64,000 nucleotides of DNA from an uncultured Gammaproteobacteria bacterium (GCA_964503265.1 CAZCYO010000001.1:226064-290063), one strand, 5' to 3'. Shown: positions 1 to 14,483, counted from the first letter of the stretch. The notes: generated by a model not told the origin, from the sequence alone. Translations and numbers: made by a program.

Positions 1-856
1 CAGTTACTATAATTTCTCCTACATAGAACGGAAGTCTTAGTGATGAATTGTTTAAAAATGTATCAAGTGGCTTCAGGAGTCTATGAAATTCAGGACCAAA
101 ATTAGTAAGCATATTATAAACATATCCAATTGGAAGAATTTTTATATGTCTTTGGAATCGAATGTTTTTAAATCCTTGTGAGGTAAGTGCTTTGGTTATA
201 CTCTTTCTACTTGATAGATGAATGTGCTCGACAGGGGAGTAGGGTGGCCAATATTTCCCCATACATTTTGCCATGAGTGAAGAACTATCAGGAGTTTGTA
301 TGATAATTGTCCCATTTTTTTTGAGAAGTTCTGCCGATCGTTTAATAAGTTTTAATGGATCAGTAACATGCTCAACAATCCCAAGTAAACTAATTACATC
401 GTATTTTCTCTGAGGAAATTTGTGATCCATTACGTCAGCCTGGAAAACTTTTCCTGGAAGTTTTTTATTTGCTATTTTTACTGCTTCTTTTTGTAGTTCT
501 AAACCATAGACGTCTGCTCCTTCAGTAGAAAGTAATTCTAAAAATCCTCCCGTAAAACAACCAATATCGAGAACTTTCATTTTTTTCAATGTTACATTTT
601 TTTCTTTTAAATTATTTTTAATAATTTTTACAAAATATGCATAGACATCTTGATATTGTGAAGCATATTTATGGAGAAGTTCATAATTACCCTTTTTAAA
701 TTTACTTGTATAGTGTTTCTTAATACTTTCTATTGTTGGATAAGGATAGGTTGAAACGATGTCGCAGTTGCTACATTTAAAGTAATGATGATCTCTATAA
801 AAGAAAATTTCTTTTTGTTTCTTGCCGCAAATAATGCATGTTTTCAAATCTGCCAT
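1..856 (-). CDS. Class I SAM-dependent methyltransferase with an N-terminal CxxC...CxxC zinc ribbon. The 3' end runs off the window start.
   Basis: Reverse-strand frame is open from ATG at 856 (MADLKTCIICGKK...KCSNCD) through LDIGCFTGGFLELL (methyltransferase motif I) and DVISLLGIVEHV (motif II-like) to position 1 with no stop. Not in the ORF track because it is edge-truncated. Confidence 0.7.
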   Translation of the reverse strand, partial: MADLKTCIICGKKQKEIFFYRDHHYFKCSNCDIVSTYPYPTIESIKKHYTSKFKKGNYELLHKYASQYQDVYAYFVKIIKNNLKEKNVTLKKMKVLDIGCFTGGFLELLSTEGADVYGLELQKEAVKIANKKLPGKVFQADVMDHKFPQRKYDVISLLGIVEHVTDPLKLIKRSAELLKKNGTIIIQTPDSSSLMAKCMGKYWPPYSPVEHIHLSSRKSITKALTSQGFKNIRFQRHIKILPIGYVYNMLTNFGPEFHRLLKPLDTFLNNSSLRLPFYVGEIIVT

Positions 857-948
857 GTGAATAATATGAATGAATTATACGTAAGGACCTCTTATATGTA
901 AACATGCATCTTGTTCTATACTTTACATTTTTATGTATTTCTAATAAG

Positions 949-2022
949 ATGAGCAATATGAAAAAAACACTTATAGTAACCGGGGGATGTGGATTTATTG
1001 GAACCAATATTTGTTTATTGGCAATTAAAAAAGGATATCATGTTGTTGCATTTGATTCTTTTATTCGCCCGCATACTGAAGAGAATGCTGTTATCCTCAA
1101 AGAGTCAGGTGTCGAGATTATCAGGGGAGATGTACGAAGTGAACACGATTTCGAGAGACTACCCAAAAAAGCAAATGGGATTATCCATCTGGCTGCAAAT
1201 CCTGGTATACCATGGTCTATTAAGTGGCCAATGTATGATTTTTCTGTAAACGCTATGGGTACTCTCAACGTATTGGAATTTGCTCGCAAAAACAACTTAA
1301 TTCCAGTTATATTTGCATCAACCAATAAAGTTTACTCAGAAGAAATAAATCTTATTCCAGTTAAAGAAGAAAAAACTAGACATGTCTGGAATTTTGAAAA
1401 AAATGTAAAACCGCCACTGCGAAGCTCAGTTCTTGAAGGTCTTACAGAAAAAGGAGTAAATGAAAATTTCCCTATGGATAGCGCTGGAAAATTCCCACAT
1501 AGTCCTTATGGAGTATCTAAAGCAACAGGGGATCTATATTGTCAAGAATATTATCATATGTATGGTGTTCCGACGGTTGTCAATAGAATGTCTTGTATTT
1601 ATGGTCTATATCAAAAAGGAGTTGAAGATCAGGGTTGGACTGATTGGTTTGTTCAAGCGAAAATACATAATAGGCCACTCAATATTTATGGAGATGGAAA
1701 ACAGGTAAGAGATTGTTTATTTGGTGGAGATGTGGCTGAGTTATATTTATTAGAATTAGAAATGATCGAGAAAGTTAAAGGACAGATTTTTAATGTCGGA
1801 GGTGGAATAACGAATACCATCAGCCTTCTTGAAACAATTACTTACTTAAATGAAAAAGGTGGCAAGCCACTATCTTTATCCTTTAAACCATGGCGCCCTG
1901 CAGATCAAAAGATTTATATCTCTGATATCAGTAAAGTTAAAAAAGCAACAGGTTGGAAACCAAAAACATCAATTGTAGATGGGCTTGATCAAATTTGGAA
2001 TCAATATAATGATAAAAAGTAA
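949..2022 (+). CDS. NAD-dependent sugar epimerase/dehydratase, SDR family, CDP-paratose/tyvelose 2-epimerase-like.
   Basis: Rossmann motif KTLIVTGGCGFIGTN, catalytic YGVSK (YxxxK), length about 360 aa. Start trimmed to MSNMKK just before the Rossmann fold. Confidence 0.75.
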   Translation: MSNMKKTLIVTGGCGFIGTNICLLAIKKGYHVVAFDSFIRPHTEENAVILKESGVEIIRGDVRSEHDFERLPKKANGIIHLAANPGIPWSIKWPMYDFSVNAMGTLNVLEFARKNNLIPVIFASTNKVYSEEINLIPVKEEKTRHVWNFEKNVKPPLRSSVLEGLTEKGVNENFPMDSAGKFPHSPYGVSKATGDLYCQEYYHMYGVPTVVNRMSCIYGLYQKGVEDQGWTDWFVQAKIHNRPLNIYGDGKQVRDCLFGGDVAELYLLELEMIEKVKGQIFNVGGGITNTISLLETITYLNEKGGKPLSLSFKPWRPADQKIYISDISKVKKATGWKPKTSIVDGLDQIWNQYNDKK

Positions 2023-2729
2023 CCCAAATACTTTTTTTTAATTCCATAAAAATACCATCGAATATAATAGCGGATATTACTTTTTAAGGTAAACTGTGAA
2101 GTACCATGCATTCTATCCTGCCATGTAGTTGGTACTTCTGTTATTCTATATCCTAAGTTATAGGCTTTTACTGCTAACTCTAGTGGCATTTCAAACCCTT
2201 CCTTACTTTCGATTTGTATATCTTTCATCACTTTTTTTCTAAAACATTTATATGCGTTTGTTGCATCATTTGTCGGTATTCCTGTTAAAGTCCTCAGTGT
2301 TAGACAACCGAGCCGTGAGAGTAGTCCTTTTATAAGTGGTCCTCCTATATGTTTTCCATCTTTCATATAGCGAGAGGCACAGACGAGATCATATCCTTCA
2401 TTAATTTTTGATACCATTTTATCAATATCTCGTGGATCATCTGATAAATCGGCCATCGATATAACAATAATCTCTGATTTTGCATAATCAATACCAGTTT
2501 TAAGTGCTTTTAACATGCCTTTTCCATCTTTGGTGAAGATGATTGTTAGATTGCTAACGTTATTTTTAATTTTAGTAAGTACTTTGATTGTCGGATCTTT
2601 TTTATCCTGAAGGACAATTATAATTATATGAGGAGTCTTTACATATTTCTCAATACCATTTATTACTTGCTCAATATTTTTCTCTTCATGATAGGTTGGG
2701 AGGATAATTGTAATGGCATTTTTTGTCAT
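2001..2729 (-). CDS. GT2 glycosyltransferase, polyprenol-phosphate sugar transferase (DPM1/ArnC-like).
   Basis: ITIILPTYHEEKNIEQV N-terminal GT-A motif, DLSDDP (DxD-type), about 240 aa, no TM domain. Confidence 0.75.
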   Translation of the reverse strand: MTKNAITIILPTYHEEKNIEQVINGIEKYVKTPHIIIIVLQDKKDPTIKVLTKIKNNVSNLTIIFTKDGKGMLKALKTGIDYAKSEIIVISMADLSDDPRDIDKMVSKINEGYDLVCASRYMKDGKHIGGPLIKGLLSRLGCLTLRTLTGIPTNDATNAYKCFRKKVMKDIQIESKEGFEMPLELAVKAYNLGYRITEVPTTWQDRMHGTSQFTLKSNIRYYIRWYFYGIKKKYLGYFLSLY

Positions 2730-2819
2730 AAAGGCCTCAATTATATGTAATAAATCACAGGAATACAAACTCTTAATACGATGTGTATACTGTATGCAGT
2801 ATTATTTTATAATGAGTAA

Positions 2820-4328
2820 ATGAAAAAATCAGAAAAGGTACTAATTAAGTATAAAAATATACTGACAAAAAATCTTAGTATTGAAAAAATAATCTTTGCA
2901 GCGTGTTCAAGTGTTATTTTCTTTATTCTTCTTTACTTTTATACACACGGTTTTATTCCACATGATGAAGGTTGGATTATTAATCCAGCAGCGCGAATTT
3001 TATATGGAGATATTCCATATCGAGATTTTCATTACATTTATACTCCTGGGGTTGCATATAGTAATGCATTAGTATTTAAATTGTTTGGCATTAGTATTCT
3101 AACTTCTCGTATTTTCACGATGGGAATTGCGTTATTAACAGTGCTTCTTTTTTATAAGATTTCTCTCTCTATTTCTGATAAGCGATACTATTCACTTCTT
3201 CCTATCTCAATTTATCTTACTTGGGGGCCGATGCATATTAATTTCGCATGGCCGATTATCTATACAATTTTTAGTGGATTACTTTGTATTTATCTTCTCT
3301 TAGTTGCAAAGGAAAAAGAAAAAGTTTCTTATTTTTTCTTTGCAGGTGTTGCAGCTGGTCTTACAATCCTTTTTAAACAAAATTTTGGCGCCGCACTGCT
3401 ATGTAACATCATTCTATTTTTTATACTAACTAAGGAGGTTAGGAAAGTGCAATACTTAACTTCTCTTATCGGTGGTGTACTTATTCTCCCGGTTATCATG
3501 TGTATTTATTTTATGATGAACCAGGCATTTATTCCTTTTATTCAAGATATGTACTTTTTTATGATTGATCAAATCTATCTAAAAGGAATGCAAAAAACTC
3601 AATTTATTTACCCGGATATATGGTACAAGCAAATTGCTAAAACATTCTTCTATCTGATACCTCTTATTGTTTCTGGGTATGCAAGTATTATCAGTGTTAA
3701 ATACAATAAATCATTTCTCTTTCTTTCTGGAATGTGCTTCTGGTATTACCTATTTGGTATCCGTCCAACAACTGATTATGTCCATTTAACTGGTCTTATG
3801 GCTTTAATTGGGATACCAATTATTCAAATACTTGTAAGTGATGTTAAACAAATTGTTAAAATAACTCTTTTATTACTTACTGGAATACTTGTTGTGGTTG
3901 GAATATATACCTCTCTTTTCCGAAACTATTATAGATGGGATACACCACTTATATATCAAAATAATTTTATAGAAAACCCCACTGTTCGAATTTCAACAGA
4001 TGCGATTTATATGAAGGTTATTCCTGAAGTGTCGAATTATATAAAAAGTACTACATCACAAAATGATCCGATATTTATCTATACTTTCTCACCTTCTTTT
4101 TATCTCATAACCAATAGGAGAAACCCTACTAAATATATTTTTGCACCCCCACAACTTCTTTCTTTAAACGATCAGGAAGAAATAGTAAAAAACCTTATAG
4201 ATAATAATGTAAAACTTATTTTGGCTGATATTCGACTACAAGATGATCATTCATTTTTATCTCGGTATATTCAGAAACATTATAAAGAAGTGAAGCATGT
4301 GAACAACTATACCTTTTGGAAAAAATAA
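2820..4328 (+). CDS. Polytopic membrane protein, GT-C-fold glycosyltransferase-like (PMT/ArnT-like).
   Basis: More than 10 predicted hydrophobic helices. The first extracytoplasmic loop carries PHDEGW...YGDIPYRDF, an acidic DE motif typical of GT-C enzymes. Confidence 0.5.
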   Translation: MKKSEKVLIKYKNILTKNLSIEKIIFAACSSVIFFILLYFYTHGFIPHDEGWIINPAARILYGDIPYRDFHYIYTPGVAYSNALVFKLFGISILTSRIFTMGIALLTVLLFYKISLSISDKRYYSLLPISIYLTWGPMHINFAWPIIYTIFSGLLCIYLLLVAKEKEKVSYFFFAGVAAGLTILFKQNFGAALLCNIILFFILTKEVRKVQYLTSLIGGVLILPVIMCIYFMMNQAFIPFIQDMYFFMIDQIYLKGMQKTQFIYPDIWYKQIAKTFFYLIPLIVSGYASIISVKYNKSFLFLSGMCFWYYLFGIRPTTDYVHLTGLMALIGIPIIQILVSDVKQIVKITLLLLTGILVVVGIYTSLFRNYYRWDTPLIYQNNFIENPTVRISTDAIYMKVIPEVSNYIKSTTSQNDPIFIYTFSPSFYLITNRRNPTKYIFAPPQLLSLNDQEEIVKNLIDNNVKLILADIRLQDDHSFLSRYIQKHYKEVKHVNNYTFWKK

Positions 4329-4387
4329 CTCATTAACATTACAAAGAATATGATAGAATTGGCCTACAATTCAGCCAAATTAATTCT

Positions 4388-6937
4388 ATGATATCTCCCA
4401 AATTTTCATTTGTTACAACGGTTTATAACGAAGAGAAGACTATTGAGAAATTTCTTGACTCTCTTTTCTTTCAAACTAAAAAAGTTGATGAAATTATTAT
4501 CGTAGATGGAGGAAGCACAGATACTACAGTAGAAAAAATCAAGTTTCAAACCACAAGATTCAAGAAAAAGAATATATCATTTAATTTTTTTGTCAAAAAA
4601 GGAAATAGATCAGTCGGAAGAAATGAAGCGATAAAGCATACAAGTGGTGATATTATTCTTTGCTCTGATGCTGGAAATATTTTAGATAAAAAATGGGTGG
4701 AAAATATTATAAAACCATTTTCTGACGAATCTGTAGATGTCGTAGCGGGATATTATAAAGGAAAAGCATCTAATACTTTTCAGAAATGTTTAATTCCATA
4801 TGTCCTTGTAATGCCAGACAAAGTTGATGAATCTACATTTCTTCCTGCAACACGCTCAGTTGCGTTCACGAAAGCTATATGGAAAAAAGTAGGGAAGTTC
4901 CCAGAAGAATTTAGTCATAACGAAGATTATGTTTTTGCTAATAAACTAAAAGAGAAAAAAGCAAATATGGTATTTGCTCGCGATGCGATTGTATATTGGA
5001 TTCCAAGAAATACCTGGAATGAAGTGTTTGTTATGTTCTTTCGGTTTGCGTATGGAGATACTGAATCGAACATAATTCGAACGAATGTTTTACTTCTTTT
5101 TGCAAGATATTTTCTGGGAGTGTATCTTATTTTTCTTACAATTCTTTATAAGAGTTTATTTGGTATGTTGCTTTTAATTTGCATCATTTTGGTATATGGC
5201 ATTTGGTCAATAACAAAAAATTATCGATATGTGAAAAAAAATAAAGCCCTCTATTTACTTCCATCCATGCAGGTTGTTGCTGATGCAGCTGTTATAAGTG
5301 GGACATCAGTAGCGTGTGTTCGAATACTATTACGGTACAACTATATTTCTTTTGCAAAACGGAATATATTTCTCCTTTTAATGATAAGTATTTATTCATT
5401 TTTGATGATCCTAACGATTCACTCGGGAGCTCCAAATAGTAATCATCCGTACCCTTATAACATGGATGAATGGCACCAGTTACAAGCGGTGCGTGAGACC
5501 TTTATTAAAGGCACTCCAAATACGGCAGGTGCTGCAAATGGAACAATGTTTCACTTTTTCCTATCAGGTTTATATCTAACTCCTTTTGTATTGAGTAAAT
5601 ATATTAGCGTTACAAACATGACGGTTTTTGACTTAGAAATGAGGAGTAAAGTATTTGAGGTTCTACGATTTAGCACAATACTTTGGGGAGTCTTGTCACT
5701 ATTTATGCTTAATAAAATTATTGATTTAACCGGAGCAGCTAAAAAAATAACATTATTCCTTTTTACATTTTGTCCATTATGGTTGAGTTTAAGTGGCTAT
5801 TTTAAATACGATATTGGATTGATGTTTTGGCTACTAGCTGCAGTATATACGCTTATTTATTTTGCAAAAAATCCCACCAATAGAAATTTTATTATTGCAG
5901 CAATCCCATCAGCCCTCTCTTTTGCTGTTAAAGTAAGTGCGATTCCACTTTTCCCAATATTCATAATTTCTTTTTTCTGGTTTCACCCTACATGGAAGCA
6001 GAACATAAAATATTTATTCATTGGAATTTTTATCTATTTAAGTATAACTATTCTCTTTGGAATGCCTGACACGCTATTTGGGAAAGGGAATATTATAGAT
6101 TATTTAATAAATAATATTCTTCAAACGCCAACGACGACAGATAACATTACTTTCGGTATAAATCCATGGGTATATCTTTTCGTTCGTCATTACCCAATTA
6201 TATTTGGACCAGGACTTATCGTAACATTTATTATCTCCCTGTATGTTATTTTATATAATACTCTTAAAGAAGGTCTAAAAAAACATAGCATTGATTTATT
6301 TCTAGTTGTTATGTGTATAGCCTTTATTGCGAGTATCTTACCCTTACAGATTTTGGGAGGAGGGAACAGGAGTTTAGTGATGTTACCGTTTTTTGCATTG
6401 ATTAGTGGGATTGGAATCAATGTGTTAATAAAGCGTAAAAAAAATATAGTATTAGTTGTTTGTTTCATTTTACTAGTTTTTTTTACCCAAGCTTACTACT
6501 CATTTGCTATCGTTTATTTAAAATCAATTCCGTCTCCACAAGAGAATTCCTCATATTGGCTTACTAAACATATTCAGCATCGAGCAATGATAGGACTAGA
6601 AAATATACCAATTTATCAAAATATCCCAGATTTACTGCAAAAAGAATTTTATTTTACTCAATCAAAAGGAGGAAAGAATAATATATTTAATTATGTCGTT
6701 ATTGATAGTAAATCAATAAAACTACCTCCTGTTGTTGTTATAACAAATGATAATATCGAAGAGAAATATATTAAAGCATCTCCTAAAAAAGATTTGATTT
6801 CGCGCTTAAAAAAAGAAAACTACGTTGTTGTTGCTAGGTTTTATCCAGATATTCGCTTTTTAGGACTGAACGATCTTGACTATTCTTTCTCTGCTCTCAT
6901 ACCTTCTCCTTATGTAACATCGGTGTATATTAAATGA
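4388..6937 (+). CDS. Fusion protein: N-terminal GT2 glycosyltransferase, large polytopic GT-C-like membrane domain, C-terminal soluble domain.
   Basis: N-terminus FSFVTTVYNEEKTIEKFL...IIIVDGGSTDTT (GT2). Residues about 230-700 are hydrophobic multi-TM with an MDEW motif. The C-terminal about 150 aa is soluble. 849 aa. Confidence 0.7.
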   Translation: MISPKFSFVTTVYNEEKTIEKFLDSLFFQTKKVDEIIIVDGGSTDTTVEKIKFQTTRFKKKNISFNFFVKKGNRSVGRNEAIKHTSGDIILCSDAGNILDKKWVENIIKPFSDESVDVVAGYYKGKASNTFQKCLIPYVLVMPDKVDESTFLPATRSVAFTKAIWKKVGKFPEEFSHNEDYVFANKLKEKKANMVFARDAIVYWIPRNTWNEVFVMFFRFAYGDTESNIIRTNVLLLFARYFLGVYLIFLTILYKSLFGMLLLICIILVYGIWSITKNYRYVKKNKALYLLPSMQVVADAAVISGTSVACVRILLRYNYISFAKRNIFLLLMISIYSFLMILTIHSGAPNSNHPYPYNMDEWHQLQAVRETFIKGTPNTAGAANGTMFHFFLSGLYLTPFVLSKYISVTNMTVFDLEMRSKVFEVLRFSTILWGVLSLFMLNKIIDLTGAAKKITLFLFTFCPLWLSLSGYFKYDIGLMFWLLAAVYTLIYFAKNPTNRNFIIAAIPSALSFAVKVSAIPLFPIFIISFFWFHPTWKQNIKYLFIGIFIYLSITILFGMPDTLFGKGNIIDYLINNILQTPTTTDNITFGINPWVYLFVRHYPIIFGPGLIVTFIISLYVILYNTLKEGLKKHSIDLFLVVMCIAFIASILPLQILGGGNRSLVMLPFFALISGIGINVLIKRKKNIVLVVCFILLVFFTQAYYSFAIVYLKSIPSPQENSSYWLTKHIQHRAMIGLENIPIYQNIPDLLQKEFYFTQSKGGKNNIFNYVVIDSKSIKLPPVVVITNDNIEEKYIKASPKKDLISRLKKENYVVVARFYPDIRFLGLNDLDYSFSALIPSPYVTSVYIK

Positions 6938-6958
6938 CTCAGCTGATATACTAATTGT

Positions 6959-8200
6959 ATGGGTTATAAATCAAATGCACTAAAAGGTGTTTCATGGATT
7001 ACCTTACTTCGAGGTCTCACAAGAATTGTAACGATTCTCCGTCTTTCTGTATTAGGAAGACTTCTTACACCGGCTGAATTTGGATTTTTCGGTATCGCCT
7101 CACTCCTTCTTTCGCTTCTTGAAATACTTACTGAAACTGGAATAAATGTGTTTTTAGTCCAGGAAAAAAAAGATTTAAAAGAATATATTAATTCTGCCTG
7201 GATTGTTTCCCTTCTGCGAGGAATTATTCTGACAATAGTTATTATTCTTACGGCTCCTATTATTACAAGTTTTTTCAATTCTCCTGAGGCGTTAAATATC
7301 ATATTACTTATTTCTATCGTTCCATTTATTCGAGGGTTTATTAACCCTGAAATAATTACGTATCAAAAAGACTTATCTTTTGATAAAGAATTTCGACTAC
7401 GATTCGTGTTATTTCTAGTTGATGTAGGTGTCTCAATTACTGTAGGGTTTATAACTCGGAGCGCTGAAAGTTTCGTATGGGGATTAATTGCATCTGCGCT
7501 CATTGAGGTGATTCTTTCTTATGTTCTTTTCCCTCTAAGACCAAAGCTTAAAGGCGAACTGGAACAGATAAAACTTATTTTAAGACGGGGATTTTGGGTA
7601 ACGGTAACGGGTATATTTTCTTATTTCGCGGATAATGGAGATAATATTACTGTTGGTAAGTTGTTGGGATCTGGATCACTTGGTATTTATCAAATTGCAT
7701 ATAAATTTTCTACACTTCCAATCAGCGAAATAACCAACGTCGTAAATCAAGTTATTTTCCCTGTATATACCAAGTTTCATAATGATAGAGAGAGATTGAT
7801 AAAAGCTTTTATAAAAGTAACTTTCGCTAGTTCACTAGTCGGAATTGTTTTAGGTAGTGGAATCTTTTTACTTGCTCAACCTATTATTCTTATTTTTATG
7901 GGTGTACAATGGGTAGCTGCTGTTCCCGTGATACAAGTTCTCTCGATTTACGGTATATTGAGAACCATTTTTGGAAGTTTTTCACCTCTTTTTCTTGCTG
8001 TGGGAAAGCAAGATTTTGTGGCTCGAATGCTCTTTTTCCGTGTTGTGACACTATTAGTTAGTATTGTGCCACTAGTTCAGATGTATGGGATGATAGGTGC
8101 TGCATATGCAATGGTTCTTTCAGTACTCATTGAGATACCTATCATCATATTTCTTACCCGTTCTGTTTTTCAAAAGCATAATTTCCCCTCTCCCGCTTAA
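6959..8200 (+). CDS. Polysaccharide biosynthesis protein, Wzx-like flippase (MOP superfamily).
   Basis: 413 aa, about 12 hydrophobic helices, typical flippase architecture. Lies inside the glycosyltransferase cluster. Confidence 0.6.
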   Translation: MGYKSNALKGVSWITLLRGLTRIVTILRLSVLGRLLTPAEFGFFGIASLLLSLLEILTETGINVFLVQEKKDLKEYINSAWIVSLLRGIILTIVIILTAPIITSFFNSPEALNIILLISIVPFIRGFINPEIITYQKDLSFDKEFRLRFVLFLVDVGVSITVGFITRSAESFVWGLIASALIEVILSYVLFPLRPKLKGELEQIKLILRRGFWVTVTGIFSYFADNGDNITVGKLLGSGSLGIYQIAYKFSTLPISEITNVVNQVIFPVYTKFHNDRERLIKAFIKVTFASSLVGIVLGSGIFLLAQPIILIFMGVQWVAAVPVIQVLSIYGILRTIFGSFSPLFLAVGKQDFVARMLFFRVVTLLVSIVPLVQMYGMIGAAYAMVLSVLIEIPIIIFLTRSVFQKHNFPSPA

Positions 8201-8237
8201 GTTAGAATGTTTATGCTTGCTCTGTGTTTAACTAAGT

Positions 8238-9389
8238 ATGTGTAGTATAATTTCTGAAGTTTATATGTCACGTGATTTACAGATTAATAGAAAAGAACGA
8301 ATAGCCTTTTTTCATGAGTTACATGTAGGCGGGGCACGAAGAGCGTGTGATGAATTTGCAACTGCGTTAAAAAATAAATACTTTGTCGATTTATACTATG
8401 TTGATGAAGATGCAGATAAGACTTCAACGAATATTTTTGACCGAGTCTACTTTTCTCCCTTTATTCCTAAACTGTGGAAAGGTGGAAACTGGAAAGTTAA
8501 ATTATATAAAGATACAATTGAACTCTATAATCTGTATAGATTACATAAGAAAATTGCAAAAAAAATTAATAATAAAGATTACTCATACGTTTTTATTCAT
8601 GGTTCAAAGTATACTCAAGCCCCGTTTCTTCTTCGTTTCGTAAACCATAAGAAAATTTATTACTGCCAAGAACCATTGCGAATTGCATATGAAGAGTATT
8701 TTGCAATCGATAAAAACCTTAGTTTTCCTAAGAAAGTATATGAATCAACAATTCGGTATGTCAGAAAGATAATTGATAAAAAGAATGCTCTCTCTGCAGA
8801 TATATTGCTTGCTAACTCAACTTTTACTAAAGAAAATATCTCTCATGCATTTGATCGAGAAGCAGTTGTATGTCATATGGGTGTTAAAACTGAAGTCTTT
8901 TATCCTGAGAAGAAGAAAAAAGATATTGATGTCTTATTTATTGGTTCATATGACTTTATCGATGGTTATTCGTTATTAGTTGACTCCCTCCAGGTATTGA
9001 AAGATAAAAAAGTAAAAGTAAAATATATTACTCGAGAAACAGAATGGATTAGTGATGATGCTATACTTCGTGATTATTACAATCGATCTAAATCTGTGAT
9101 AGCTTTTGGATATAAAGAACCTTTTGGCCTTATTCCCCTTGAAGCGATGAGTTGTGGTACACCAGTTATTGCTTTAAATGAGGGTGGATATAAGGACTCA
9201 GTCATTGAGGGAAAGACTGGGTTTCTTGTTCCTAGAGACAAAAAAGTTATTGCTGAGAGAATAGCATATCTCATTTCTCATCCGACTATAGTTCGTTATA
9301 TGGGTAAAAATGCGAGGCAGCAGATACTTAACCATTGGACATGGTCAGCTAGTTCAACTTACTTAGAAAGTCTATTAATACATGAATAG
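8238..9389 (+). CDS. GT4 (GT-B fold) glycosyltransferase.
   Basis: C-terminal EPFGLIPLEAMSCGTPVIALNEGGYKDSVIEGKTGFLV is the canonical GT4/GT1 E-x7-E region. Confidence 0.8.
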   Translation: MCSIISEVYMSRDLQINRKERIAFFHELHVGGARRACDEFATALKNKYFVDLYYVDEDADKTSTNIFDRVYFSPFIPKLWKGGNWKVKLYKDTIELYNLYRLHKKIAKKINNKDYSYVFIHGSKYTQAPFLLRFVNHKKIYYCQEPLRIAYEEYFAIDKNLSFPKKVYESTIRYVRKIIDKKNALSADILLANSTFTKENISHAFDREAVVCHMGVKTEVFYPEKKKKDIDVLFIGSYDFIDGYSLLVDSLQVLKDKKVKVKYITRETEWISDDAILRDYYNRSKSVIAFGYKEPFGLIPLEAMSCGTPVIALNEGGYKDSVIEGKTGFLVPRDKKVIAERIAYLISHPTIVRYMGKNARQQILNHWTWSASSTYLESLLIHE

Positions 9390-11655
9390 TATCAATCCCA
9401 CTCTTTCTATTATTATCGTACATTATCATGTGGAACATGAATTAGTTGATTTGTTGCAGTCACTTGGAACTTCCCGGGAGCAGGAGATTATTGTAGTAGA
9501 TAATGACGAAAAGCCATTCATAGAGAAGCAGTTGACCAAGCAGTTTCCGTCCGTTATTTATCTGAAAAATAAAAAAAATCTTGGATTTGGAGTAGCAAAT
9601 AATATTGGCTCTAGAGTTGCAAAAGGAAAATATCTTTTTTTCATTAATCCCGACACCATAGTTGAAAAAGGTACAGTTGAAAAACTAATAACATTTTTAG
9701 ATAATCACAAAAAAGCTGGCGCTGTAGCGCCACTTCTTTACCACCCTGACGGAACTATTTTTGAGAAGCAAGGTGTTAAGACACTTACACCTCTTCGTGC
9801 ACTATTTTCAACTTCTCTTATTCATCGAATATGGCCAAATAATCCGATTGCACGTATGTATTGGAATGCTTCCTGGAAAAAAAAGACAGTTAAAGAAGTT
9901 GGTGCCTTACCTGGGACTGCATGTATGATAAGAAAAGAGTTGTTCGACGCAGTAGGCGGTTTTGATGAGAAATTCTTTTTATACTTTGAAGAATTTGATC
10001 TATGCCAAAGAATTAATCAGGGGGGATTATCGTTATATATGATTCCTGATACTAAAGTCATACATTTATGGGGTGTTTCAACTGGACAAAAAGATGATAA
10101 AGACCTTATCTTTAAGGAAAGCCAAGAGTATTATTTTAGAAAATATTATGGTTATGTTATAGCAAAGATTCTTACGACTTTCTTAACATTTGATAAATAC
10201 TCCCTACTGTTACTTCTTCTCTTACTACTCGGATTATTTCTGAGGACATACAGGATTACTGAATTATTTATGTTTATTGGGGATTTCGGATGGTTTTACT
10301 TATCTGCCTGGGATATGGTAACCAAAGGAATAATACCGCTAGTGAGTATTCCCTCCTCTGTCGTCTGGCTTCACCAGGGGCCACTCGCTACGTATATGAT
10401 GGCATTTGCATTATGGGCAGGGAGAATGAACCCTGTGGCTCCAGCACTTCTTTTTTCAGTTATTGATATGGTAACTATTTATTTCGTTTTTTTGCTGGGA
10501 AAAAAAATACGGAACGTAGAAACAGGAATAGTAGCTGCGCTTCTTTATGCTACGTCACCGTTAGTGTTAATCAATGTTCGAATGCCATATCACACGGCAA
10601 TTATTCCGTTTTTTGCTTGTAGTGTTATTTTAATGACGTTACTGGTATTGGAAAAGAAAAGATATTACTTCTGGCTTTTTTTCCTATCAGGACTGCTCAT
10701 ACAATTAGAGCTTTCCAATGCCATCGTTATGCTAATCTTTATGTTTCTTTTTATTTTCTATCGAGAAGAGATTACACTTCGTGTTTCTATTATTCGCGAG
10801 AGTGTATGTGGAATGTTACTGGGGATTTCCCCTTTTATTCTCTATGATGTAACCCATCATTTTACCCAAACACTTGGGTTTCCCTTATGGGTGCTTAATC
10901 GCGTTAGGTTATTCTTAGGTCTTACTACTAGTGGAAACGCCACTACTCATAATCTTCCACAAGTATTTGTGGTCTTGTGGGAGCATATTGCAAGAATTAT
11001 ATTTCCGTACTCAGAAATAATCGTTGCCATCGTTATACTGCTTGCTGTTACTATAATAGGAAGAAAAATAGTAACTACAAAGAAAGCGCTGTTACATAAT
11101 AAATCTTTTATTTTATTATTATTGTGGATCATTGTTCCATTTGTTAGTTTCATAGTTCATGCGGCGCCGGGAGATGCTTATTTTCCATTTCTCTTCCCAG
11201 CCATTATTCTGGGCGTAGCATATGCTTTCTCAGAGCTTTCTAACAATAAACGTATATTCACGTTATTTGTGGTTGTTTTTTTAAGTGTTTTTAATGCAGG
11301 GTACACTCTTTCACAAGATTATTTTCTTTCCACAGAAACTGGTGCTCATTATATGCCACCACATGGATATGGTTTTGGGCCAGCTTTTTATATTCAGAAT
11401 ACAGTTGCAAATAAGGTAACGAAGGATGCTGATGGTAACTCTATTCGTTTACGGGTAGGAGGATATCAAGGAAGTGTTAAAACAGGTGGGGATCAGTTTA
11501 AATATCTGCTTATGCAAAAAGGAGTGAAGCTTTCCTCCAATGCATCGTTAACGTATACAATTTATGAATCAAAGCGTGATATTCCACCAAATGAATCTGT
11601 CTTTTATCAAAATAATTACTATTTTGTAACAAAGACAACTAATGTTAATTTATAG
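9382..11655 (+). CDS. Fusion protein: N-terminal GT2 glycosyltransferase plus polytopic GT-C-like membrane domain.
   Basis: LSIIIVHYHVEHELVDLLQSL...IIVVDNDEKP and FINPDT (GT2), followed by about 400 aa of TM helices and a short C-terminal soluble tail. 757 aa. Confidence 0.7.
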   Translation: MNSINPTLSIIIVHYHVEHELVDLLQSLGTSREQEIIVVDNDEKPFIEKQLTKQFPSVIYLKNKKNLGFGVANNIGSRVAKGKYLFFINPDTIVEKGTVEKLITFLDNHKKAGAVAPLLYHPDGTIFEKQGVKTLTPLRALFSTSLIHRIWPNNPIARMYWNASWKKKTVKEVGALPGTACMIRKELFDAVGGFDEKFFLYFEEFDLCQRINQGGLSLYMIPDTKVIHLWGVSTGQKDDKDLIFKESQEYYFRKYYGYVIAKILTTFLTFDKYSLLLLLLLLLGLFLRTYRITELFMFIGDFGWFYLSAWDMVTKGIIPLVSIPSSVVWLHQGPLATYMMAFALWAGRMNPVAPALLFSVIDMVTIYFVFLLGKKIRNVETGIVAALLYATSPLVLINVRMPYHTAIIPFFACSVILMTLLVLEKKRYYFWLFFLSGLLIQLELSNAIVMLIFMFLFIFYREEITLRVSIIRESVCGMLLGISPFILYDVTHHFTQTLGFPLWVLNRVRLFLGLTTSGNATTHNLPQVFVVLWEHIARIIFPYSEIIVAIVILLAVTIIGRKIVTTKKALLHNKSFILLLLWIIVPFVSFIVHAAPGDAYFPFLFPAIILGVAYAFSELSNNKRIFTLFVVVFLSVFNAGYTLSQDYFLSTETGAHYMPPHGYGFGPAFYIQNTVANKVTKDADGNSIRLRVGGYQGSVKTGGDQFKYLLMQKGVKLSSNASLTYTIYESKRDIPPNESVFYQNNYYFVTKTTNVNL

Positions 11656-13024
11656 GATATATCATACGTAGAAATTTCATAATGCCTTGTGAATTGGTAT
11701 TAACTCCTAAATCGTACGTAGGGGACTGATAAAATCCTAGGAAATAAATGATAAGAGAAAAATTTATAAGTATAAATAGAAAACAAATAATATACATTGT
11801 TTTTGTATTAAATCGATTTTTTAGATAATCAAATAAACATGCTATTCCAAATGAAAGGAAGGGAAGCGTAGAGGTTAACATTCTTACGCTAAATGATTCT
11901 CCTTGTTGCCACGCAGACCAACTAGCTATGAGGTAATACTCTACTACAAATAAGGTAATGAAATACCATCCAAGAGATTTTTCTTTTTTACTAAACGGTA
12001 CTAACCCTAGAATTCCTATGATAACTCCTGGTGACCACCAGAGAAGTCCAATTTTAGAGTTAATAAGTAGCTCAAGCAAATGGGGATTGAGTAAATAAAA
12101 CCCTTCTTTACCGGCAATATATGGACTACGCGTGAACGTCCCGTACATAAGATACCAAACATACATTTGAATCGAGAAAACTAATAGGAAGCCTGCAAAG
12201 AGTACTAGTATATAAAGAAAGTTAGCTACAATGGCACGAAAATTATGTGATTGTATTTTTTGCACTGCATGTTTTCCTATCGCGATAACTGGAAGAAGCA
12301 AAAATATACCCTCTTGTGTCCTAGTCATTGCCATATATCCAACAGTCATGCCAATTGTAAAATAGAGTAATTTTGAAGGATTTGAAATACTCCGTATAAA
12401 TAATAATAAAAAAATACAACTAAGGAGAAATGTTAATGGAAGTGAGTTAACGACATCGATAGCAGCGTAATAGAAAAGAAATGTCGCAAACGTCAGAAAA
12501 ATAATTGTCAACATTGTTACCGATTTACTAAAATATTTTTTAAGCTGAAGAGAAAGTAGATATAGTCCGAGAGAAACAAATAGTACGTTCCATACGCCAG
12601 TTATAATTTGGTATATATCGGAATAACCCAAATTGCTAATATTTGGATTAAAGAAACGTAGTGTATTTGATATACTATCTGCAAATGTAAAAGCTGGAAG
12701 CCATGAGAGAGGAGCTCCCACAGGATATCTGTTCACTGTATAACCAGTTTTTGTATAGTCATTGACGTAACCTAGGGGTTCTTCTACCGCTCTATTATTA
12801 TTTTCGTGAGAATAGTGATGTCCGAGTTCATTTTTAAATTGTATGTCATGATCTTTATAAATTGATCTCGTGAATGCATAGTAAAAAATTCCATCACCAT
12901 AGACTGCTTGACCGACAATTATATAGTGAAGAAGAAAAACTCCAACTAAAAAAGGGAAGATACCAAAGAATATTAATCGCTTAAAAAGCATCTTTTTATT
13001 ATACTGTGGTAGAATTAAATACAC
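11645..13024 (-). CDS. Polytopic membrane protein, GT-C-like. Converges on the previous gene with an 11-bp tail-to-tail overlap.
   Basis: 459 aa, many hydrophobic helices, extracytoplasmic loop YGDGIFYY... Confidence 0.45.
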   Translation of the reverse strand: MYLILPQYNKKMLFKRLIFFGIFPFLVGVFLLHYIIVGQAVYGDGIFYYAFTRSIYKDHDIQFKNELGHHYSHENNNRAVEEPLGYVNDYTKTGYTVNRYPVGAPLSWLPAFTFADSISNTLRFFNPNISNLGYSDIYQIITGVWNVLFVSLGLYLLSLQLKKYFSKSVTMLTIIFLTFATFLFYYAAIDVVNSLPLTFLLSCIFLLLFIRSISNPSKLLYFTIGMTVGYMAMTRTQEGIFLLLPVIAIGKHAVQKIQSHNFRAIVANFLYILVLFAGFLLVFSIQMYVWYLMYGTFTRSPYIAGKEGFYLLNPHLLELLINSKIGLLWWSPGVIIGILGLVPFSKKEKSLGWYFITLFVVEYYLIASWSAWQQGESFSVRMLTSTLPFLSFGIACLFDYLKNRFNTKTMYIICFLFILINFSLIIYFLGFYQSPTYDLGVNTNSQGIMKFLRMIYPIN

Positions 13025-13027
13025 CAG

Positions 13028-13789: not shown

Positions 13790-14483
13790 AGGGCTACCAA
13801 CACTTGAAGTACTTGAAGGAGCTTGGAGATATAATACTTGGATATCTGAAGCCATACTTCCACATCTTCACAGTCCTATCCTTGAGGTTGGGGCTGGGAC
13901 CGGAAATATAAGTTCAATAGTATTGCGGCATCACTCTCTGTATGTTTCAGATGTAGATGAATATCTTGTAAATACACTAAAAAAGAAACTATCAAAAAAT
14001 GGAAATGTTAATTGTGAAAAACTAGATATAACAAAAAATAATTCCCGTTTCACTAATTATTTTTCTTCACTTTACGCAATTAATGTACTTGAACATATAG
14101 ACGACGATTTACAAGCTTTAAAAAACATGTATAGTCTACTTAATGATGGTGGTACTTTGGTGATACTTGTTCCAGCAAAACAAAATGTATATTCTCGACT
14201 TGATAAGGTACTTGGGCACTATCGAAGATATGAAAAAGAAGGATTGAAAATAAAAGTAGAAGAAGCAGGCTTTATAGTAAAAAAAATATATTTTTTTAAT
14301 TTTCTTGGTCTTATTAGCTGGAGAATTCGTGATCTCTTTGATAAGAGATCTATTCATCTATCTTCTACGCAGATAGCATTATTTGATACACTTGTGCCGT
14401 TATTAAAAAGAGTTGAAAAATATTTTCATATTCCAATCGGAATTTCACTAATTGTTGTTGCGAGGAAGCCGAATGAAAAATAA
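13776..14483 (+). CDS. Class I SAM-dependent methyltransferase.
   Basis: ILEVGAGTGNISS glycine-rich motif I. Overlaps the upstream GT2 gene by 14 nt. Confidence 0.75.
   Translation: MSSYKGLPTLEVLEGAWRYNTWISEAILPHLHSPILEVGAGTGNISSIVLRHHSLYVSDVDEYLVNTLKKKLSKNGNVNCEKLDITKNNSRFTNYFSSLYAINVLEHIDDDLQALKNMYSLLNDGGTLVILVPAKQNVYSRLDKVLGHYRRYEKEGLKIKVEEAGFIVKKIYFFNFLGLISWRIRDLFDKRSIHLSSTQIALFDTLVPLLKRVEKYFHIPIGISLIVVARKPNEK

What the first reader, a model, noticed from the sequence alone, without database searches (positions are those of the whole stretch)
4388..6937. Single-polypeptide fusion of a GT2 transferase to a large polytopic membrane domain, first of two
GT2 polyprenol-phosphate sugar synthases (ArnC/DPM1-type) make the lipid-linked donors that GT-C enzymes (ArnT/PMT-type) use on the outer face of the membrane. 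In well-studied systems they are separate proteins. Here an 849-aa protein carries a clear GT2 N-terminal domain fused to a polytopic membrane domain of about 470 aa with an MDEW acidic loop motif, plus a soluble C-terminal domain. A GT-C assignment for the membrane domain is an inference from hydropathy and one DE motif. The fusion implies a self-contained donor-synthesis plus transfer module, or a GT2 domain used for processive polymerisation and export as in cellulose-synthase-like enzymes.
Basis: partly seen in the sequence, partly recalled or inferred. Interest (0 to 1): 0.6.

Follow-up and report, generated by a model that had tools for sequence, protein, structure and literature searches.

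The report
Two-faced GT2–GT-C membrane glycosyltransferase fusion
One 849-residue membrane protein of an uncultured Levybacteria-type (candidate phyla radiation) bacterium joins a sugar-adding enzyme facing the cell interior to a second sugar-adding enzyme facing the outside. Related genomes fuse or place the same parts next to a lipid-sugar flippase, which suggests the three work as one surface-glycan assembly machine.

Summary
ORF 4388..6937 (+) encodes an intact 849-aa protein with three parts:
- a GT2 catalytic domain with its own membrane helices (residues 1-316);
- an 11-TM GT-C domain (327-713) with an invariant MDEWH loop motif;
- a C-terminal alpha/beta domain (714-849).

It is not an assembly artefact. 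The exact sequence occurs in two assemblies, and the fusion is in frame in 60 of 80 species-level loci.

The GT-C fold is confirmed: pLDDT is 92-93, and the 30 best Foldseek hits, all with probability at or near 1.0, are GT-C enzymes. But the GT2 is not ArnC/DPM1-type. It keeps the TarS/PcManGT-type catalytic base (E179-D180) and belongs to the membrane GT2 lineage (Glyco_tranf_2_3, GT21-like). A genuine DPM1/GtrB-like GT2 is a separate neighbouring gene (2001..2768, minus strand).

New finding: the GT2 module, the GT-C module and the adjacent Wzx flippase form a linked triad. In other genomes they are separate genes in one cluster. In some, the same GT2 module is fused seamlessly to Wzx instead.

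Most likely the protein is part of a Wzx-dependent surface-glycan assembly line. The GT2 works on a lipid-linked glycan inside, Wzx flips it, and the GT-C acts outside.

It is an uncharacterised new variant of known multi-component transmembrane glycosylation systems, of moderate interest.

The parts
4388..6937 (+). Whole fusion gene (849 aa plus stop): GT2 module, linker, GT-C module and C-terminal domain.
   Evidence: ORF list and translation. Full-length AlphaFold model: pLDDT 91.9, pTM 0.88. Family of at least 424 homologs. Exact sequence in two assemblies.
4388..5071 (+). Cytoplasmic GT-A fold GT2 catalytic domain (residues 1-228). Signature residues: D40 (VDGGSTD), D94 (SDAG, a DXD-like motif) and E179-D180 (catalytic-base position, nt 4922-4927).
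   Evidence: Pfam PF00535 82 bits and PF13641 39.9 bits. Invariant residues. The alignment to TarS places E179-D180 on the TarS ED. Foldseek GT-A hits.
5015..5335 (+). Membrane part of the GT2 module: interface helix 210-226 (FFRFAYGD), TM1 232-253, TM2 257-282, and a third long helix 287-316 carrying invariant Q295, D299 and G305. The third helix probably makes no net crossing.
   Evidence: AlphaFold secondary structure. Family-wide hydropathy and K/R counts. Foldseek match of GT2 plus helices to PcManGT 6yv7 (323 columns, TMt 0.58) and to Chlorella virus hyaluronan synthase. The module exists alone as proteins of 300-330 aa.
5336..5365 (+). Fusion junction or linker (residues 317-326). It is poorly conserved and K/R-rich, and is predicted to be cytoplasmic.
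   Evidence: Low conservation in A1. The GT2-Wzx fusion P0271 has its junction at the same position, F1 residue ~319.
5366..6526 (+). GT-C module (residues 327-713), about 11 TM helices. TM1 is 327-342 and the first outer loop EL1 is 343-415. Other invariant residues: R427, F472-K473-Y474-D475, K515, P560-D561, N660-R661, Q701.
   Evidence: Model of residues 318-849: pLDDT 92.9, pTM 0.92. The 30 best Foldseek hits are all GT-C enzymes. Pfam PMT_2 is sub-threshold in this protein (23.8-25.4 bits against a cutoff of 26.1) but is found in 19 of 20 family members, and PF02366 PMT in 13 of 20.
5462..5476 (+). MDEWH motif (M359-H363) at the start of the first EL1 helix. D360/E361 is the putative catalytic acid pair of the GT-C.
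   Evidence: Invariant in 62 of 62 and 20 of 20 sequences including unfused GT-Cs. Coordinates verified. Outward-facing location inferred from the positive-inside pattern and from the topology of the fusion partners.
6527..6934 (+). C-terminal alpha/beta domain (residues 714-849), predicted to be extracytoplasmic. Function unknown; possibly binds the acceptor.
   Evidence: AlphaFold secondary structure with high pLDDT. Conserved G736, P741, Y743, P780. No Pfam hit.
6959..8200 (+). Wzx-type MOP flippase (413 aa), 21 nt downstream. It is the conserved partner of the fusion.
   Evidence: Pfam Polysacc_synt_3 233 bits; NCBIfam MOP flippase. Wzx starts within 150 nt of the GT-C module's end in 28 of 61 loci, and is present in 53 of 65 long loci. 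In P0271 and relatives it is fused to the GT2 module.
2001..2768 (-). Small DPM1/GtrB/ArnC-type GT2 (255 aa), the likely polyprenyl-phosphate sugar synthase of the island.
   Evidence: PDB phmmer: DPMS 5mlz 1.8e-20 (residues 17-238), GtrB 7e-14, ArnC 2e-9. NCBIfam: AglJ, PgfS, Dol-P hexose transferase, ArnC, PpgS. Homologs lie next to the fusion in 38 of 63 long loci that carry the GT-C module.
9382..11655 (+). Second, independent GT2-GT-C fusion (757 aa). It has a rhamnosyltransferase-like GT2 plus a PMT_2-type GT-C.
   Evidence: Pfam and NCBIfam. Family of 611 hits. Only 24% identity to F1, over the GT2 N-terminus. Its GT2 half occurs unfused in L090-L092.
8238..9389 (+). GT4 glycosyltransferase, a conserved member of the same gene cluster.
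   Evidence: Pfam Glycos_transf_1. Present in 44 of 65 long loci.

Best explanation
F1 is a two-faced integral-membrane glycosyltransferase that belongs to a Wzx-dependent surface-glycan assembly line of Levybacteria-type (Patescibacteria/CPR) bacteria.

Shown:
- The protein has an N-terminal GT-A fold GT2 with its own membrane helices, then an 11-TM GT-C domain with an invariant D360-E361, then a C-terminal domain.
- The GT2 module, the GT-C module and the neighbouring Wzx flippase are genetically tied. They occur fused as GT2-GT-C, fused as GT2-Wzx, or as adjacent separate genes.

Inferred topology: the GT2 is in the cytoplasm, the junction at about residue 319 is in the cytoplasm, and the MDEWH loop and C-terminal domain are outside.

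Inferred mechanism:
1. The GT2 module is a conventional inverting GT2. It uses a nucleotide sugar and its E179/D180 base to add a sugar to a hydroxyl of a membrane-anchored, polyprenyl-phosphate-linked glycan on the cytoplasmic face.
2. Together with the cluster's GT4 and other GT2s, it builds the lipid-linked unit.
3. Wzx flips that unit.
4. The GT-C domain acts on it outside.

Favoured sub-variant for step 4: the GT-C decorates the flipped glycan with a sugar taken from a polyprenyl-P-sugar made by the separate DPM1-like GT2 at 2001..2768(-). Alternative sub-variant: the GT-C transfers or polymerises the flipped glycan itself.

On this reading, the fusion holds the inside and outside steps together around the flippase.
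For: Architecture and fold.

The GT2 is not of the DPM1 type but has a TarS/PcManGT-like catalytic base. Family members exceed the Pfam gathering scores for the membrane-GT2 families Glyco_tranf_2_3, Glyco_transf_21 and Glyco_trans_2_3.

Triad linkage:
- Wzx lies directly downstream in the window and in L001, L002, L006 and L007, and within 150 nt in 28 of 61 loci.
- The GT2 module and GT-C module are separate genes in the same cluster in 8 species-level loci.
- The unfused GT-C is still followed by Wzx in L071 and L078.
- The GT2 module is fused seamlessly to a homolog of this very Wzx in P0271 (53% and 46% identity; junction at F1 residue ~319) and in relatives.

Core versus accessory: loci L090-L092 keep GT2-Wzx, GT4, the unfused F2-type GT2 and a further GT2, but lack both GT-C modules and the DPM1-like gene.

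Topology: K/R-rich short loops fall on the GT2 side, the long outer loops are net negative, and both flanks of helix 287-316 are K/R-rich. Both fusion partners start with a TM helix that, from established knowledge of Wzx and GT-C topology, begins in the cytoplasm.

Precedent for GT-A plus Wzx-type flippase plus GT-C systems, and for cytoplasmic elongation on C55-P-GlcNAc: PMC10821137, PMC8035078.
Against: - No biochemical data exist for any family member. Donor sugar, lipid carrier and acceptor are all unknown.
- Integral TM helices on a GT2 are typical of polyprenyl-P sugar synthases and of synthases. They are less typical of repeat-unit GTs, which are usually peripheral.
- From my recollection of the abstract (paper not held), the best structural match, PcManGT, was reported as dolichyl-phosphate-dependent, and its acceptor is unresolved (PMC8993221). 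The structural match therefore does not exclude a lipid-phosphate acceptor.
- The DPM1-like gene is found within 6 kb in only 38 of 63 long GT-C-containing loci.
- L090 and L091 contain other GT-C genes (GT87, PMT_2) but no DPM1-like gene, so something else must supply lipid-sugar donors there.
- I could not inspect 3D coordinates, so the position of helix 287-316 and the interface between the modules are inferred.
Confidence: 0.55

Rival explanations
1. Self-contained donor synthesis plus transfer. The fused GT2 is a non-canonical polyprenyl-phosphate sugar synthase. Wzx flips the polyprenyl-P-sugar, as GacK does. The fused GT-C then uses it as donor on an extracytoplasmic acceptor. This would be a GtrB/GacI-flippase-GtrC/GacL three-component system condensed into a fusion plus its neighbour.
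For: - The GT2-Wzx-GT-C triad is exactly the component list of three- and four-component transmembrane glycosylation systems, including a Wzx-type flippase (PMC10821137, PMC8035078).
- A GT-A domain followed by an interface helix and two C-terminal TM helices matches the GtrB/DPMS layout (plus my own knowledge of those structures).
- The GT2-Wzx fusions suggest that the GT2's product is what Wzx flips.
- L090 and L091 have GT87 and PMT_2 genes but no DPM1-like gene.
- Invariant basic residues R231, R240 and K277 near the membrane could bind a lipid phosphate.
Against: - No sequence similarity to DPMS, GtrB or ArnC beyond the nucleotide-binding half.
- From motif knowledge, the DADLQxPP, SRY and DxTSGFR-type signatures are absent in F1 but present in the neighbouring 2001..2768(-) protein, which matches DPMS, GtrB and ArnC over its full length.
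- An invariant ED sits at the TarS catalytic-base position, with TarS-like spacing from the DXD motif.
- A dedicated DPM1-like GT2 lies next to the fusion in many loci.
Confidence: 0.25
2. Processive synthase-type enzyme. The GT2 module polymerises a glycan and exports it through a channel formed with the following TM helices (BcsA/HAS-like). The GT-C part serves as channel or modifier.
For: - The GT2 plus its helices resemble PcManGT ('minimal cellulose-synthase-like fold') and Chlorella virus hyaluronan synthase in Foldseek.
- Pfam hits to synthase-type families Glyco_tranf_2_3 and Glyco_trans_2_3.
Against: - No QxxRW motif. The equivalent helix reads FFRFAYGD, and neither the Q nor the W is conserved.
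- The autonomous module has only two TM helices plus one further helix.
- The cluster carries Wzx, Wzy_C and several single-addition GTs, typical of a Wzx-dependent rather than a synthase-dependent pathway.
- The GT-C domain keeps its own invariant catalytic motif.
Confidence: 0.04
3. Artefact: two adjacent genes merged by an assembly or frameshift error, or a chance ORF.
For: In 8 of 80 related loci the two modules are separate genes, so a split state does exist in nature.
Against: - The identical 849-aa product occurs in two independent assemblies.
- The fusion is in frame in 60 of 80 species-level loci and in more than 120 full-length homologs.
- Where the modules are separate they are not adjacent, so a single frameshift could not merge them.
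- The full-length model is confident, pTM 0.88.
Confidence: 0.01

Closest known systems
GacI/GacJ/GacK/GacL of Streptococcus pyogenes, and lactococcal WpsA/B-WpsC..F-WpsG-WpsH/J (multi-component transmembrane glycosylation with a Wzx-type flippase)
   Same: A cytoplasmic GT-A enzyme, a Wzx-type flippase and an extracytoplasmic GT-C encoded together. A separate small DPM1/GacI-like GT2 is also present in the island. In lactococci, cytoplasmic GTs elongate a C55-P-linked sugar before Wzx flipping and GT-C transfer. That matches the gene content here (PMC10821137, PMC8035078).
   Different: Here the GT-A and GT-C are one polypeptide, or in relatives the GT-A and Wzx are. The fused GT2 is not GacI/DPM1-like. 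No GacJ-like activator was identified. The organism is a CPR bacterium and the glycan and acceptor are unknown.
GtrA/GtrB/GtrC and ArnC/ArnE-F/ArnT three-component systems
   Same: The logic of an inside GT2, a flippase and an outside GT-C with an acidic residue in the first outer loop.
   Different: E. coli GtrB and ArnC align only with the first ~90-130 residues of F1. ArnT aligns at 2.9% probability. The flippase is a 12-TM MOP/Wzx protein, not the small GtrA or ArnE/F type. The components are separate proteins in those systems.
PcManGT (Pyrobaculum calidifontis membrane GT2, PDB 6yv7)
   Same: It is the best structural match to the GT2 module including its membrane helices: E = 3.9e-10, 323 aligned columns, TMt 0.58. 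The catalytic-base Asp is at the aligned position.
   Different: 16% identity. It is archaeal and stand-alone. Its own acceptor is unresolved.
PMT / PMT_2 (GT39/GT83-like) GT-C enzymes, and ALG12/ALG9
   Same: GT-C fold. TM-scores (query/target) are 0.53/0.57 to ALG12, 0.52/0.55 to Pmt4 and 0.46/0.46 to ArnT. Pfam PMT_2 and PMT hits occur across the family. From memory, the DE-x-H motif in loop 1 resembles the PMT 'DE' motif.
   Different: No PDB chain is detectable by sequence profile, with 0 hits at E <= 10. No MIR domains. There is a distinct C-terminal domain. The module is fused to a GT2.
Mycobacterium tuberculosis Ppm1 (GT2 Ppm synthase fused to an Lnt-like membrane domain) and GacJ-GacI fusions
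   Same: Natural fusions of a GT2 to a membrane partner that is a separate protein in other species. The GacJ-GacI fusions are noted in PMC10821137. Ppm1 is from my own knowledge.
   Different: In those cases the partner is an anchor or activator, not a second glycosyltransferase or a flippase.

Membership tests
GT2 (GT-A fold, inverting Leloir glycosyltransferases) | Pfam PF00535 match above the gathering score, and a GT-A fold | tested here: met
   82.1 bits against a cutoff of 23.3. Foldseek GT-A hits include 6p61 with TMt 0.82, plus TarP, TarS and WrtF.
GT2 (GT-A fold, inverting Leloir glycosyltransferases) | Conserved nucleotide/metal-binding Asp residues and a catalytic-base Asp/Glu | tested here: met
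   D40, D94, E179 and D180 are invariant in 62 sequences. The ED aligns with the TarS ED. The base role of TarS D178 and PcManGT D223 is stated in PMC12595478. The DXD motif is degenerate (DAG).
Polyprenyl-phosphate glycosyltransferases (DPM1 / GtrB / ArnC type) | Sequence similarity across the whole catalytic domain, including the acceptor half | tested here: not met
   The family profile aligns to E. coli ArnC only over columns 6-135 and to GtrB only over 6-97. With the single sequence, ArnC scores 8.9e-4, and DPMS and GtrB do not reach 1e-3. The neighbouring protein at 2001..2768(-) does meet this test: DPMS 1.8e-20 over residues 17-238.
Polyprenyl-phosphate glycosyltransferases (DPM1 / GtrB / ArnC type) | Formation of polyprenyl-P-sugar from a nucleotide sugar and polyprenyl phosphate | not testable with these tools
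   Needs an enzyme assay.
Processive membrane GT2 synthases (BcsA / HAS / NodC type) | A Q(Q/R)xRW motif on the interface helix after the ED motif | tested here: not met
   The equivalent segment is M-F-F-R-F-A-Y-G-D (residues 216-224). Neither the Q nor the W is conserved in the family consensus.
Processive membrane GT2 synthases (BcsA / HAS / NodC type) | A transmembrane channel built from six or more TM helices of the synthase | tested here: inconclusive
   The autonomous module has two TM helices plus one long helix. Whether helices of the fused partner complete a conduit could not be examined without coordinates.
GT-C superfamily | GT-C fold: polytopic, with a conserved N-terminal TM module and a long first outer loop containing helices | tested here: met
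   Model of residues 318-849: pLDDT 92.9. The 30 best Foldseek hits are all GT-C enzymes, with probability 0.99-1.00 for ranks 1-29 and 0.89 for rank 30; the best is ALG12 at E = 6.8e-8 and TM 0.53/0.57.
GT-C superfamily | Conserved acidic residue(s) in the first extracytoplasmic loop | tested here: met
   D360-E361 are invariant in 62 of 62 and 20 of 20 sequences. They sit at the start of the first EL1 helix. The outside location is inferred from charge bias and fusion-partner topology, not measured.
GT-C superfamily | Use of a polyprenyl-phosphate-linked sugar donor | not testable with these tools
   Needs biochemistry. Conserved K473, K515 and R661 are candidate phosphate ligands only.
Pfam PMT_2 / PMT (GT39, GT83-like) families | Match above the Pfam gathering score | tested here: inconclusive
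   F1 itself scores 23.8-25.4 bits against a cutoff of 26.1. However, 19 of 20 family GT-C modules match PMT_2 (best 1.3e-14) and 13 of 20 match PMT (best 1.3e-9). No MIR domains were detected, so it is not a PMT in the strict sense. E. coli ArnT aligns at only 2.9% probability.
Multi-component transmembrane glycosylation system (GT-A + flippase + GT-C) | All three components encoded together and conserved as a set | tested here: met
   Synteny in 7 inspected loci and in an 80-locus census. Alternative GT2-Wzx fusions.
Multi-component transmembrane glycosylation system (GT-A + flippase + GT-C) | The GT-A makes the lipid-monophosphate sugar that the GT-C uses | not tested
   Sequence evidence leans against this for the fused GT2 and towards the separate DPM1-like GT2. 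There are no functional data.

The most novel reading that the evidence does not exclude
The GT2 module's three membrane helices form only a 'half tunnel', as described for PcManGT. That half tunnel would be completed by the TM helices of whichever partner it is fused to, GT-C or Wzx. The lipid-linked product would then pass from the cytoplasmic active site, across the membrane, to the outside active site without ever leaving the protein. This would be a hybrid between synthase-dependent and Wzx-dependent glycan export, and direct evidence for substrate channelling in a GT-flippase-GT-C machine.
Probability: 0.1. Interest if true: 0.8.

Novelty: new variant of a known kind. Interest (0 to 1): 0.5.

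Why it matters
Inside-flip-outside glycosylation systems (Gtr, Arn, Gac, Wps, CsbB/YfhO) are described as sets of separate proteins. Whether the cytoplasmic transferase, the flippase and the outer GT-C physically cooperate is largely unresolved.

This family provides natural covalent versions of two of the three possible pairings, GT2-GT-C and GT2-Wzx, with the same junction point. That is classic Rosetta-stone evidence that the three act as one complex. It also gives single-polypeptide targets for cryo-EM and for reconstitution.

The locus is a conserved glycan-assembly island in Levybacteria/Microgenomates. These are ultra-small, uncultured CPR bacteria whose cell-surface chemistry is essentially unknown, and public records call these proteins only 'glycosyltransferase'.

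In the literature I could search, I found no description of either fusion type.

Tried and rejected

2. A sequence-profile search of the GT-C module against PDB found nothing at E <= 10. The full-length profile gave only Pmt1 at E = 0.93. hhalign against E. coli ArnT gave 2.9% probability. The GT-C assignment therefore rests on fold and on Pfam hits at family level.

3. The idea that the two fusions in the window are paralogs was rejected: 24% identity, limited to 111 aligned positions of GT2. No GT-C of the island shows BLAST similarity to another.

4. The idea that the 551-556-aa ORFs following the stand-alone GT2 modules in L074 and L077 are the split-off GT-C was rejected. They have no similarity to F1 and no Pfam hit. 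The real GT-C homolog lies 1.7-4 kb further downstream in those loci.

5. I tested whether presence of the DPM1-like gene tracks presence of the GT-C module. The result is suggestive only: 38 of 63 GT-C-containing long loci have it, and none of the 3 GT2-Wzx loci (L090-L092, two of them at least 12 kb long) do. That is too few negatives.

6. Nine literature searches found no paper describing GT2-GT-C or GT2-Wzx fusion proteins. The one apparent lead (PMC11340318) uses 'fused' only for cloning. The PcManGT paper itself is not held.

7. The word-indexed homolog search did not return F1's own sequence (best hit 63%), although the exact protein is on record. I treated this as a tool quirk, not biology.

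8. Source names for the stand-alone modules were sought, but none exist.


Full report
**1. The observation**

The window has an uninterrupted ORF at 4388..6937 (+), with an ATG start, encoding 849 aa.

- Pfam gives a clear GT2 hit: PF00535, residues 7-125, E = 5.9e-23. It also gives a sub-threshold PMT_2 hit: residues 421-551, 23.8 bits against a cutoff of 26.1.
- The MDEW motif is at residues 359-362, nt 5462-5473.
- A second GT2 + PMT_2 protein of 757 aa is at 9382..11655.
- The two fusions are not duplicates of each other. They share only 24% identity over 111 aligned positions of the GT2 N-terminus.

**2. Not an artefact**

- The exact 849-aa product is encoded on two independently assembled contigs.
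- A word-indexed search found 424 homologs. The best 120 were nearly all ~835-900 aa long, apart from three truncated entries, with 44-63% identity and mostly ~100% coverage. Source names were 'Candidatus Levybacteria' or 'Patescibacteria group'.
- An exhaustive phmmer search against 1.84 billion cluster representatives gave 603 clusters at E <= 1e-30.
- A scan of one genome per species returned 80 loci. In 60 of them the two halves are contiguous and in frame.
- GC content is equal in both halves.

**3. Structure**

With a 62-sequence alignment (A1), AlphaFold gave a confident full-length model: pLDDT 91.9, pTM 0.88. Its elements are:

| Residues | Element |
|---|---|
| 1-228 | GT-A domain |
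| 210-226 | amphipathic helix |
| 232-253, 257-282, 287-316 | three long helices |
| 327-342 | a TM helix |
| 343-415 | a 73-residue loop with two helices, the first beginning exactly at MDEWH |
| to 713 | about ten more TM helices |
| 714-849 | an alpha/beta domain |

Foldseek against the PDB matched the GT2 plus its helices best to PcManGT 6yv7 (E = 3.9e-10, 323 columns, TMt 0.58), and then to Chlorella virus hyaluronan synthase.

A separate model of residues 318-849 (pLDDT 92.9, pTM 0.92) hit only GT-C enzymes in its 30 best Foldseek matches. Probability was 0.99-1.00 for ranks 1-29 and 0.89 for rank 30 (PimE). They were ALG12 (E = 6.8e-8, TM 0.53/0.57), ALG9, STT3, AglB, ArnT, PglB, AftD, ALG3, Pmt4, Emb, GPI-MT-I and PimE.

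At the family level, 19 of 20 GT-C modules match Pfam PMT_2 and 13 of 20 match PMT.

**4. Conserved residues**

- GT2: D40, D94 and E179-D180 are invariant.
- Membrane part of the GT2 module: R231, R240, Y241, Y270, K277, N278, Y281, Q295, D299 and G305 are invariant.
- GT-C: M359-D360-E361-W362-H363(-Q364), R427, F472-K473-Y474-D475, K515, P560-D561, N660-R661 and Q701 are invariant.

Both catalytic centres therefore look intact.

**5. Topology**

Across the family, the short loops 533-539, 629-633 and 683-686 are K/R-rich. The long loops 343-415 and 559-592 are net negative. This places the MDEWH loop and the C-terminal domain outside, on the opposite side from the GT2.

Helix 287-316 is only marginally hydrophobic, and both of its flanks are K/R-rich. 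It probably makes no net crossing.

There is independent support. In other proteins the same GT2 module is fused at the same point (F1 residue ~319) directly to residue 2 of a Wzx flippase. From established knowledge, both Wzx and GT-C enzymes begin with an in-to-out helix, so the junction must be cytoplasmic. I could not inspect coordinates, so this remains an inference.

**6. What kind of GT2?**

- The family profile aligns with E. coli ArnC and GtrB only over the generic nucleotide-binding part, columns 6-135 and 6-97.
- With the single sequence, the best PDB matches are TarS (residues 5-203), GalT1, PcManGT and TarP. ArnC is marginal (8.9e-4), and DPMS and GtrB fall below threshold.
- The invariant E179-D180 aligns with the ED of TarS. 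PMC12595478 identifies TarS D178 and PcManGT D223 as the general base of inverting GT-A enzymes.
- Family members pass the Pfam thresholds for the membrane-GT2 families Glyco_tranf_2_3, Glyco_transf_21 and Glyco_trans_2_3.

In contrast, the small divergent gene at 2001..2768(-) matches DPMS 5mlz at 1.8e-20 over its whole catalytic domain, then GtrB and ArnC and nothing else of note. It also hits NCBIfam AglJ, PgfS, Dol-P-hexose transferase, ArnC and PpgS.

The island therefore already has a conventional, separate DPM1-type donor synthase. The fused GT2 looks like an enzyme that glycosylates a hydroxyl group of a membrane-bound acceptor.

The processive-synthase alternative is weak. There is no QxxRW motif (FFRFAYGD instead), and the module has only two TM helices plus one further helix.

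**7. Context**

Positions 1-20 kb form a glycan island of lower GC, 0.31-0.35 against about 0.38-0.44 elsewhere. It contains, in order:

- an epimerase/dehydratase;
- the DPM1-like GT2;
- a stand-alone PMT_2;
- F1;
- Wzx;
- a GT4;
- F2;
- an LA_3751-like membrane protein;
- a GT2;
- a methyltransferase;
- an unannotated polytopic ORF;
- a PMT_2;
- a GT87;
- a Wzy_C protein;
- an Ig-like surface protein.

Housekeeping genes follow.

Wzx lies directly downstream of the fusion in the window and in L001, L002, L006 and L007, and within 1-3 genes in L008 and L009. Wzx starts within 150 nt of the end of the GT-C module in 28 of 61 loci.

**8. Modularity (the main new result)**

- In 8 species-level loci, the GT2 module (~307 aa) and the MDEWH-type GT-C (~530 aa) are separate genes in the same cluster. 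These are L071, L073, L074, L077, L079, L080, L081 and L087. Wzx sits next to one or the other.
- Twelve further loci show the GT-C alone within the fetched flanks. Where examined (L071, L078), Wzx still follows it.
- The exhaustive search shows many stand-alone GT2 modules of 300-335 aa, with 38-54% identity to residues 5-312.
- It also shows the same module fused to other partners:
  - Wzx: P0271, P0301, P0303, P0333 and P0341;
  - different PMT_2 GT-Cs: P0289 and P0305;
  - a GT4: P0358.
- P0271 is a seamless join of an F1-type GT2 module (53% identity) and a homolog of this window's Wzx (46% identity). Seven close clusters of this fusion exist, one from Woesebacteria.
- Their loci (L090-L092) carry a pared-down version of the same island: [GT2-Wzx], GT4, an unfused F2-type GT2, a GT2, GT87, Wzy_C and a surface protein. 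They lack both GT-C modules and the DPM1-like gene.

GT2, Wzx and GT-C are therefore linked pairwise, by fusion or by adjacency. The GT-C modules look like accessory additions to a core Wzx-dependent pathway.

**9. Mechanism**

Best-supported model, at about 0.55:
1. The GT2 domain, inside the cell, adds a sugar to a polyprenyl-phosphate-linked glycan.
2. Wzx flips that glycan.
3. The GT-C domain acts on it outside.

For step 3, the most likely action is decoration with a sugar from the polyprenyl-P-sugar made by the separate DPM1-like GT2. The alternative is transfer or polymerisation of the flipped glycan itself.

- integral TM helices are typical of polyprenyl-P GTs;
- the GT2-Wzx fusion suggests that the GT2 product is the flipped species;
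- L090 and L091 have GT-C genes but no DPM1-like gene;
- the acceptor of the best structural match, PcManGT, is unresolved.

Only biochemistry can decide between the two.

**10. Novelty**

The components and the logic are known. The covalent GT2-GT-C and GT2-Wzx arrangements, and the resulting evidence for a physical GT-flippase-GT-C unit, are not described in the review of these systems, which has no mention of 'fused' or 'fusion'. Nor are they described in any paper I could find.

Public annotations say only 'glycosyltransferase'. A few JGI names for the F2 family read 'GT2 family glycosyltransferase/4-amino-4-deoxy-L-arabinose transferase-like glycosyltransferase', so automated annotation pipelines already see that domain pair.

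I rate this a new variant of a known kind, with interest about 0.5.

Noticed in passing
window 2001-2768 (-): A small 255-aa GT2 that is the true DPM1/GtrB/ArnC-type polyprenyl-phosphate sugar synthase candidate of the island: DPMS 5mlz 1.8e-20, with NCBIfam AglJ, PgfS and PpgS hits. It has no TM helices, like GacI/WpsA. No GacJ-like partner was looked for.
   Followed up: yes
window 9382-11655 (+): A second, independent GT2-GT-C fusion (757 aa). Its GT2 is rhamnosyltransferase-like (GGFDE...EEFD motif) and a single TM helix precedes a PMT_2-type GT-C. The family has 611 hits. Its GT2 half occurs unfused (253-270 aa) in L090-L092. P0274 combines an F2-like GT2 with an F1-like GT-C.
   Followed up: partly
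L090 6001-8181; L091 6001-8256; L092 6001-8193 (proteins P0271, P0395, P0398): In other CPR genomes (one labelled Woesebacteria), the same GT2 module is fused seamlessly to the Wzx flippase instead of to a GT-C. I found no description of this architecture in the literature.
   Followed up: yes
window 1-20000 versus 20000-64000: A composition shift: the glycan island has GC 0.31-0.35, while the housekeeping remainder (ATP synthase, DnaE, PolX, PPDK) has 0.38-0.44. This is typical of variable surface-glycan loci and is a possible sign of lateral exchange.
   Followed up: no
window 2820-4328, 11645-13024(-), 14583-16322, 16315-17916, 17901-19016, 18977-20221: An unusual density of polytopic, GT-C-like or related membrane proteins within 20 kb: two stand-alone PMT_2, an LA_3751/3752-like protein, a 579-aa polytopic ORF with no Pfam or NCBIfam hit, a GT87 and a Wzy_C/O-antigen-ligase-like protein. 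None is BLAST-similar to another.
   Followed up: partly
window 20208-20915 (-); L090 13219-13947 (-): A small protein with Glucodextran_B/bacterial Ig-like domains closes the island here and, at 41% identity, in the distant locus L090. It may be a surface protein linked to the glycan, possibly an acceptor.
   Followed up: no
F1 residues 287-316 (window 5246-5335): A 30-residue helix of borderline hydrophobicity with invariant polar residues Q295, D299 and G305. It ends the autonomous GT2 module just before every fusion junction. Its position (interfacial, re-entrant or transmembrane) and its role are unexplained.
   Followed up: partly
L011, L013, L017, L020-L029 and many others (record titles): Many third-party MAG records that carry this Levybacteria-type locus are titled 'uncultured Gammaproteobacteria bacterium' or 'Pseudomonadales'. 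Given 40-55% identity and shared synteny with Levybacteria records, these titles look like placeholder or wrong taxonomy.
   Followed up: no
L083 5869-7452 (Limisphaerales MAG), L081 (Amesbacteria), L089 (Paceibacterota): Unfused MDEWH-type GT-C homologs (32-35% identity) occur outside Levybacteria, including one Verrucomicrobia-labelled MAG. The GT-C module is therefore older or more mobile than the fusion.
   Followed up: no
L074 6899-8569; L077 4764-6419: ORFs of 551-556 aa with no Pfam hit and no similarity to F1 directly follow the stand-alone GT2 modules. They are possibly yet another membrane partner of that module.
   Followed up: partly
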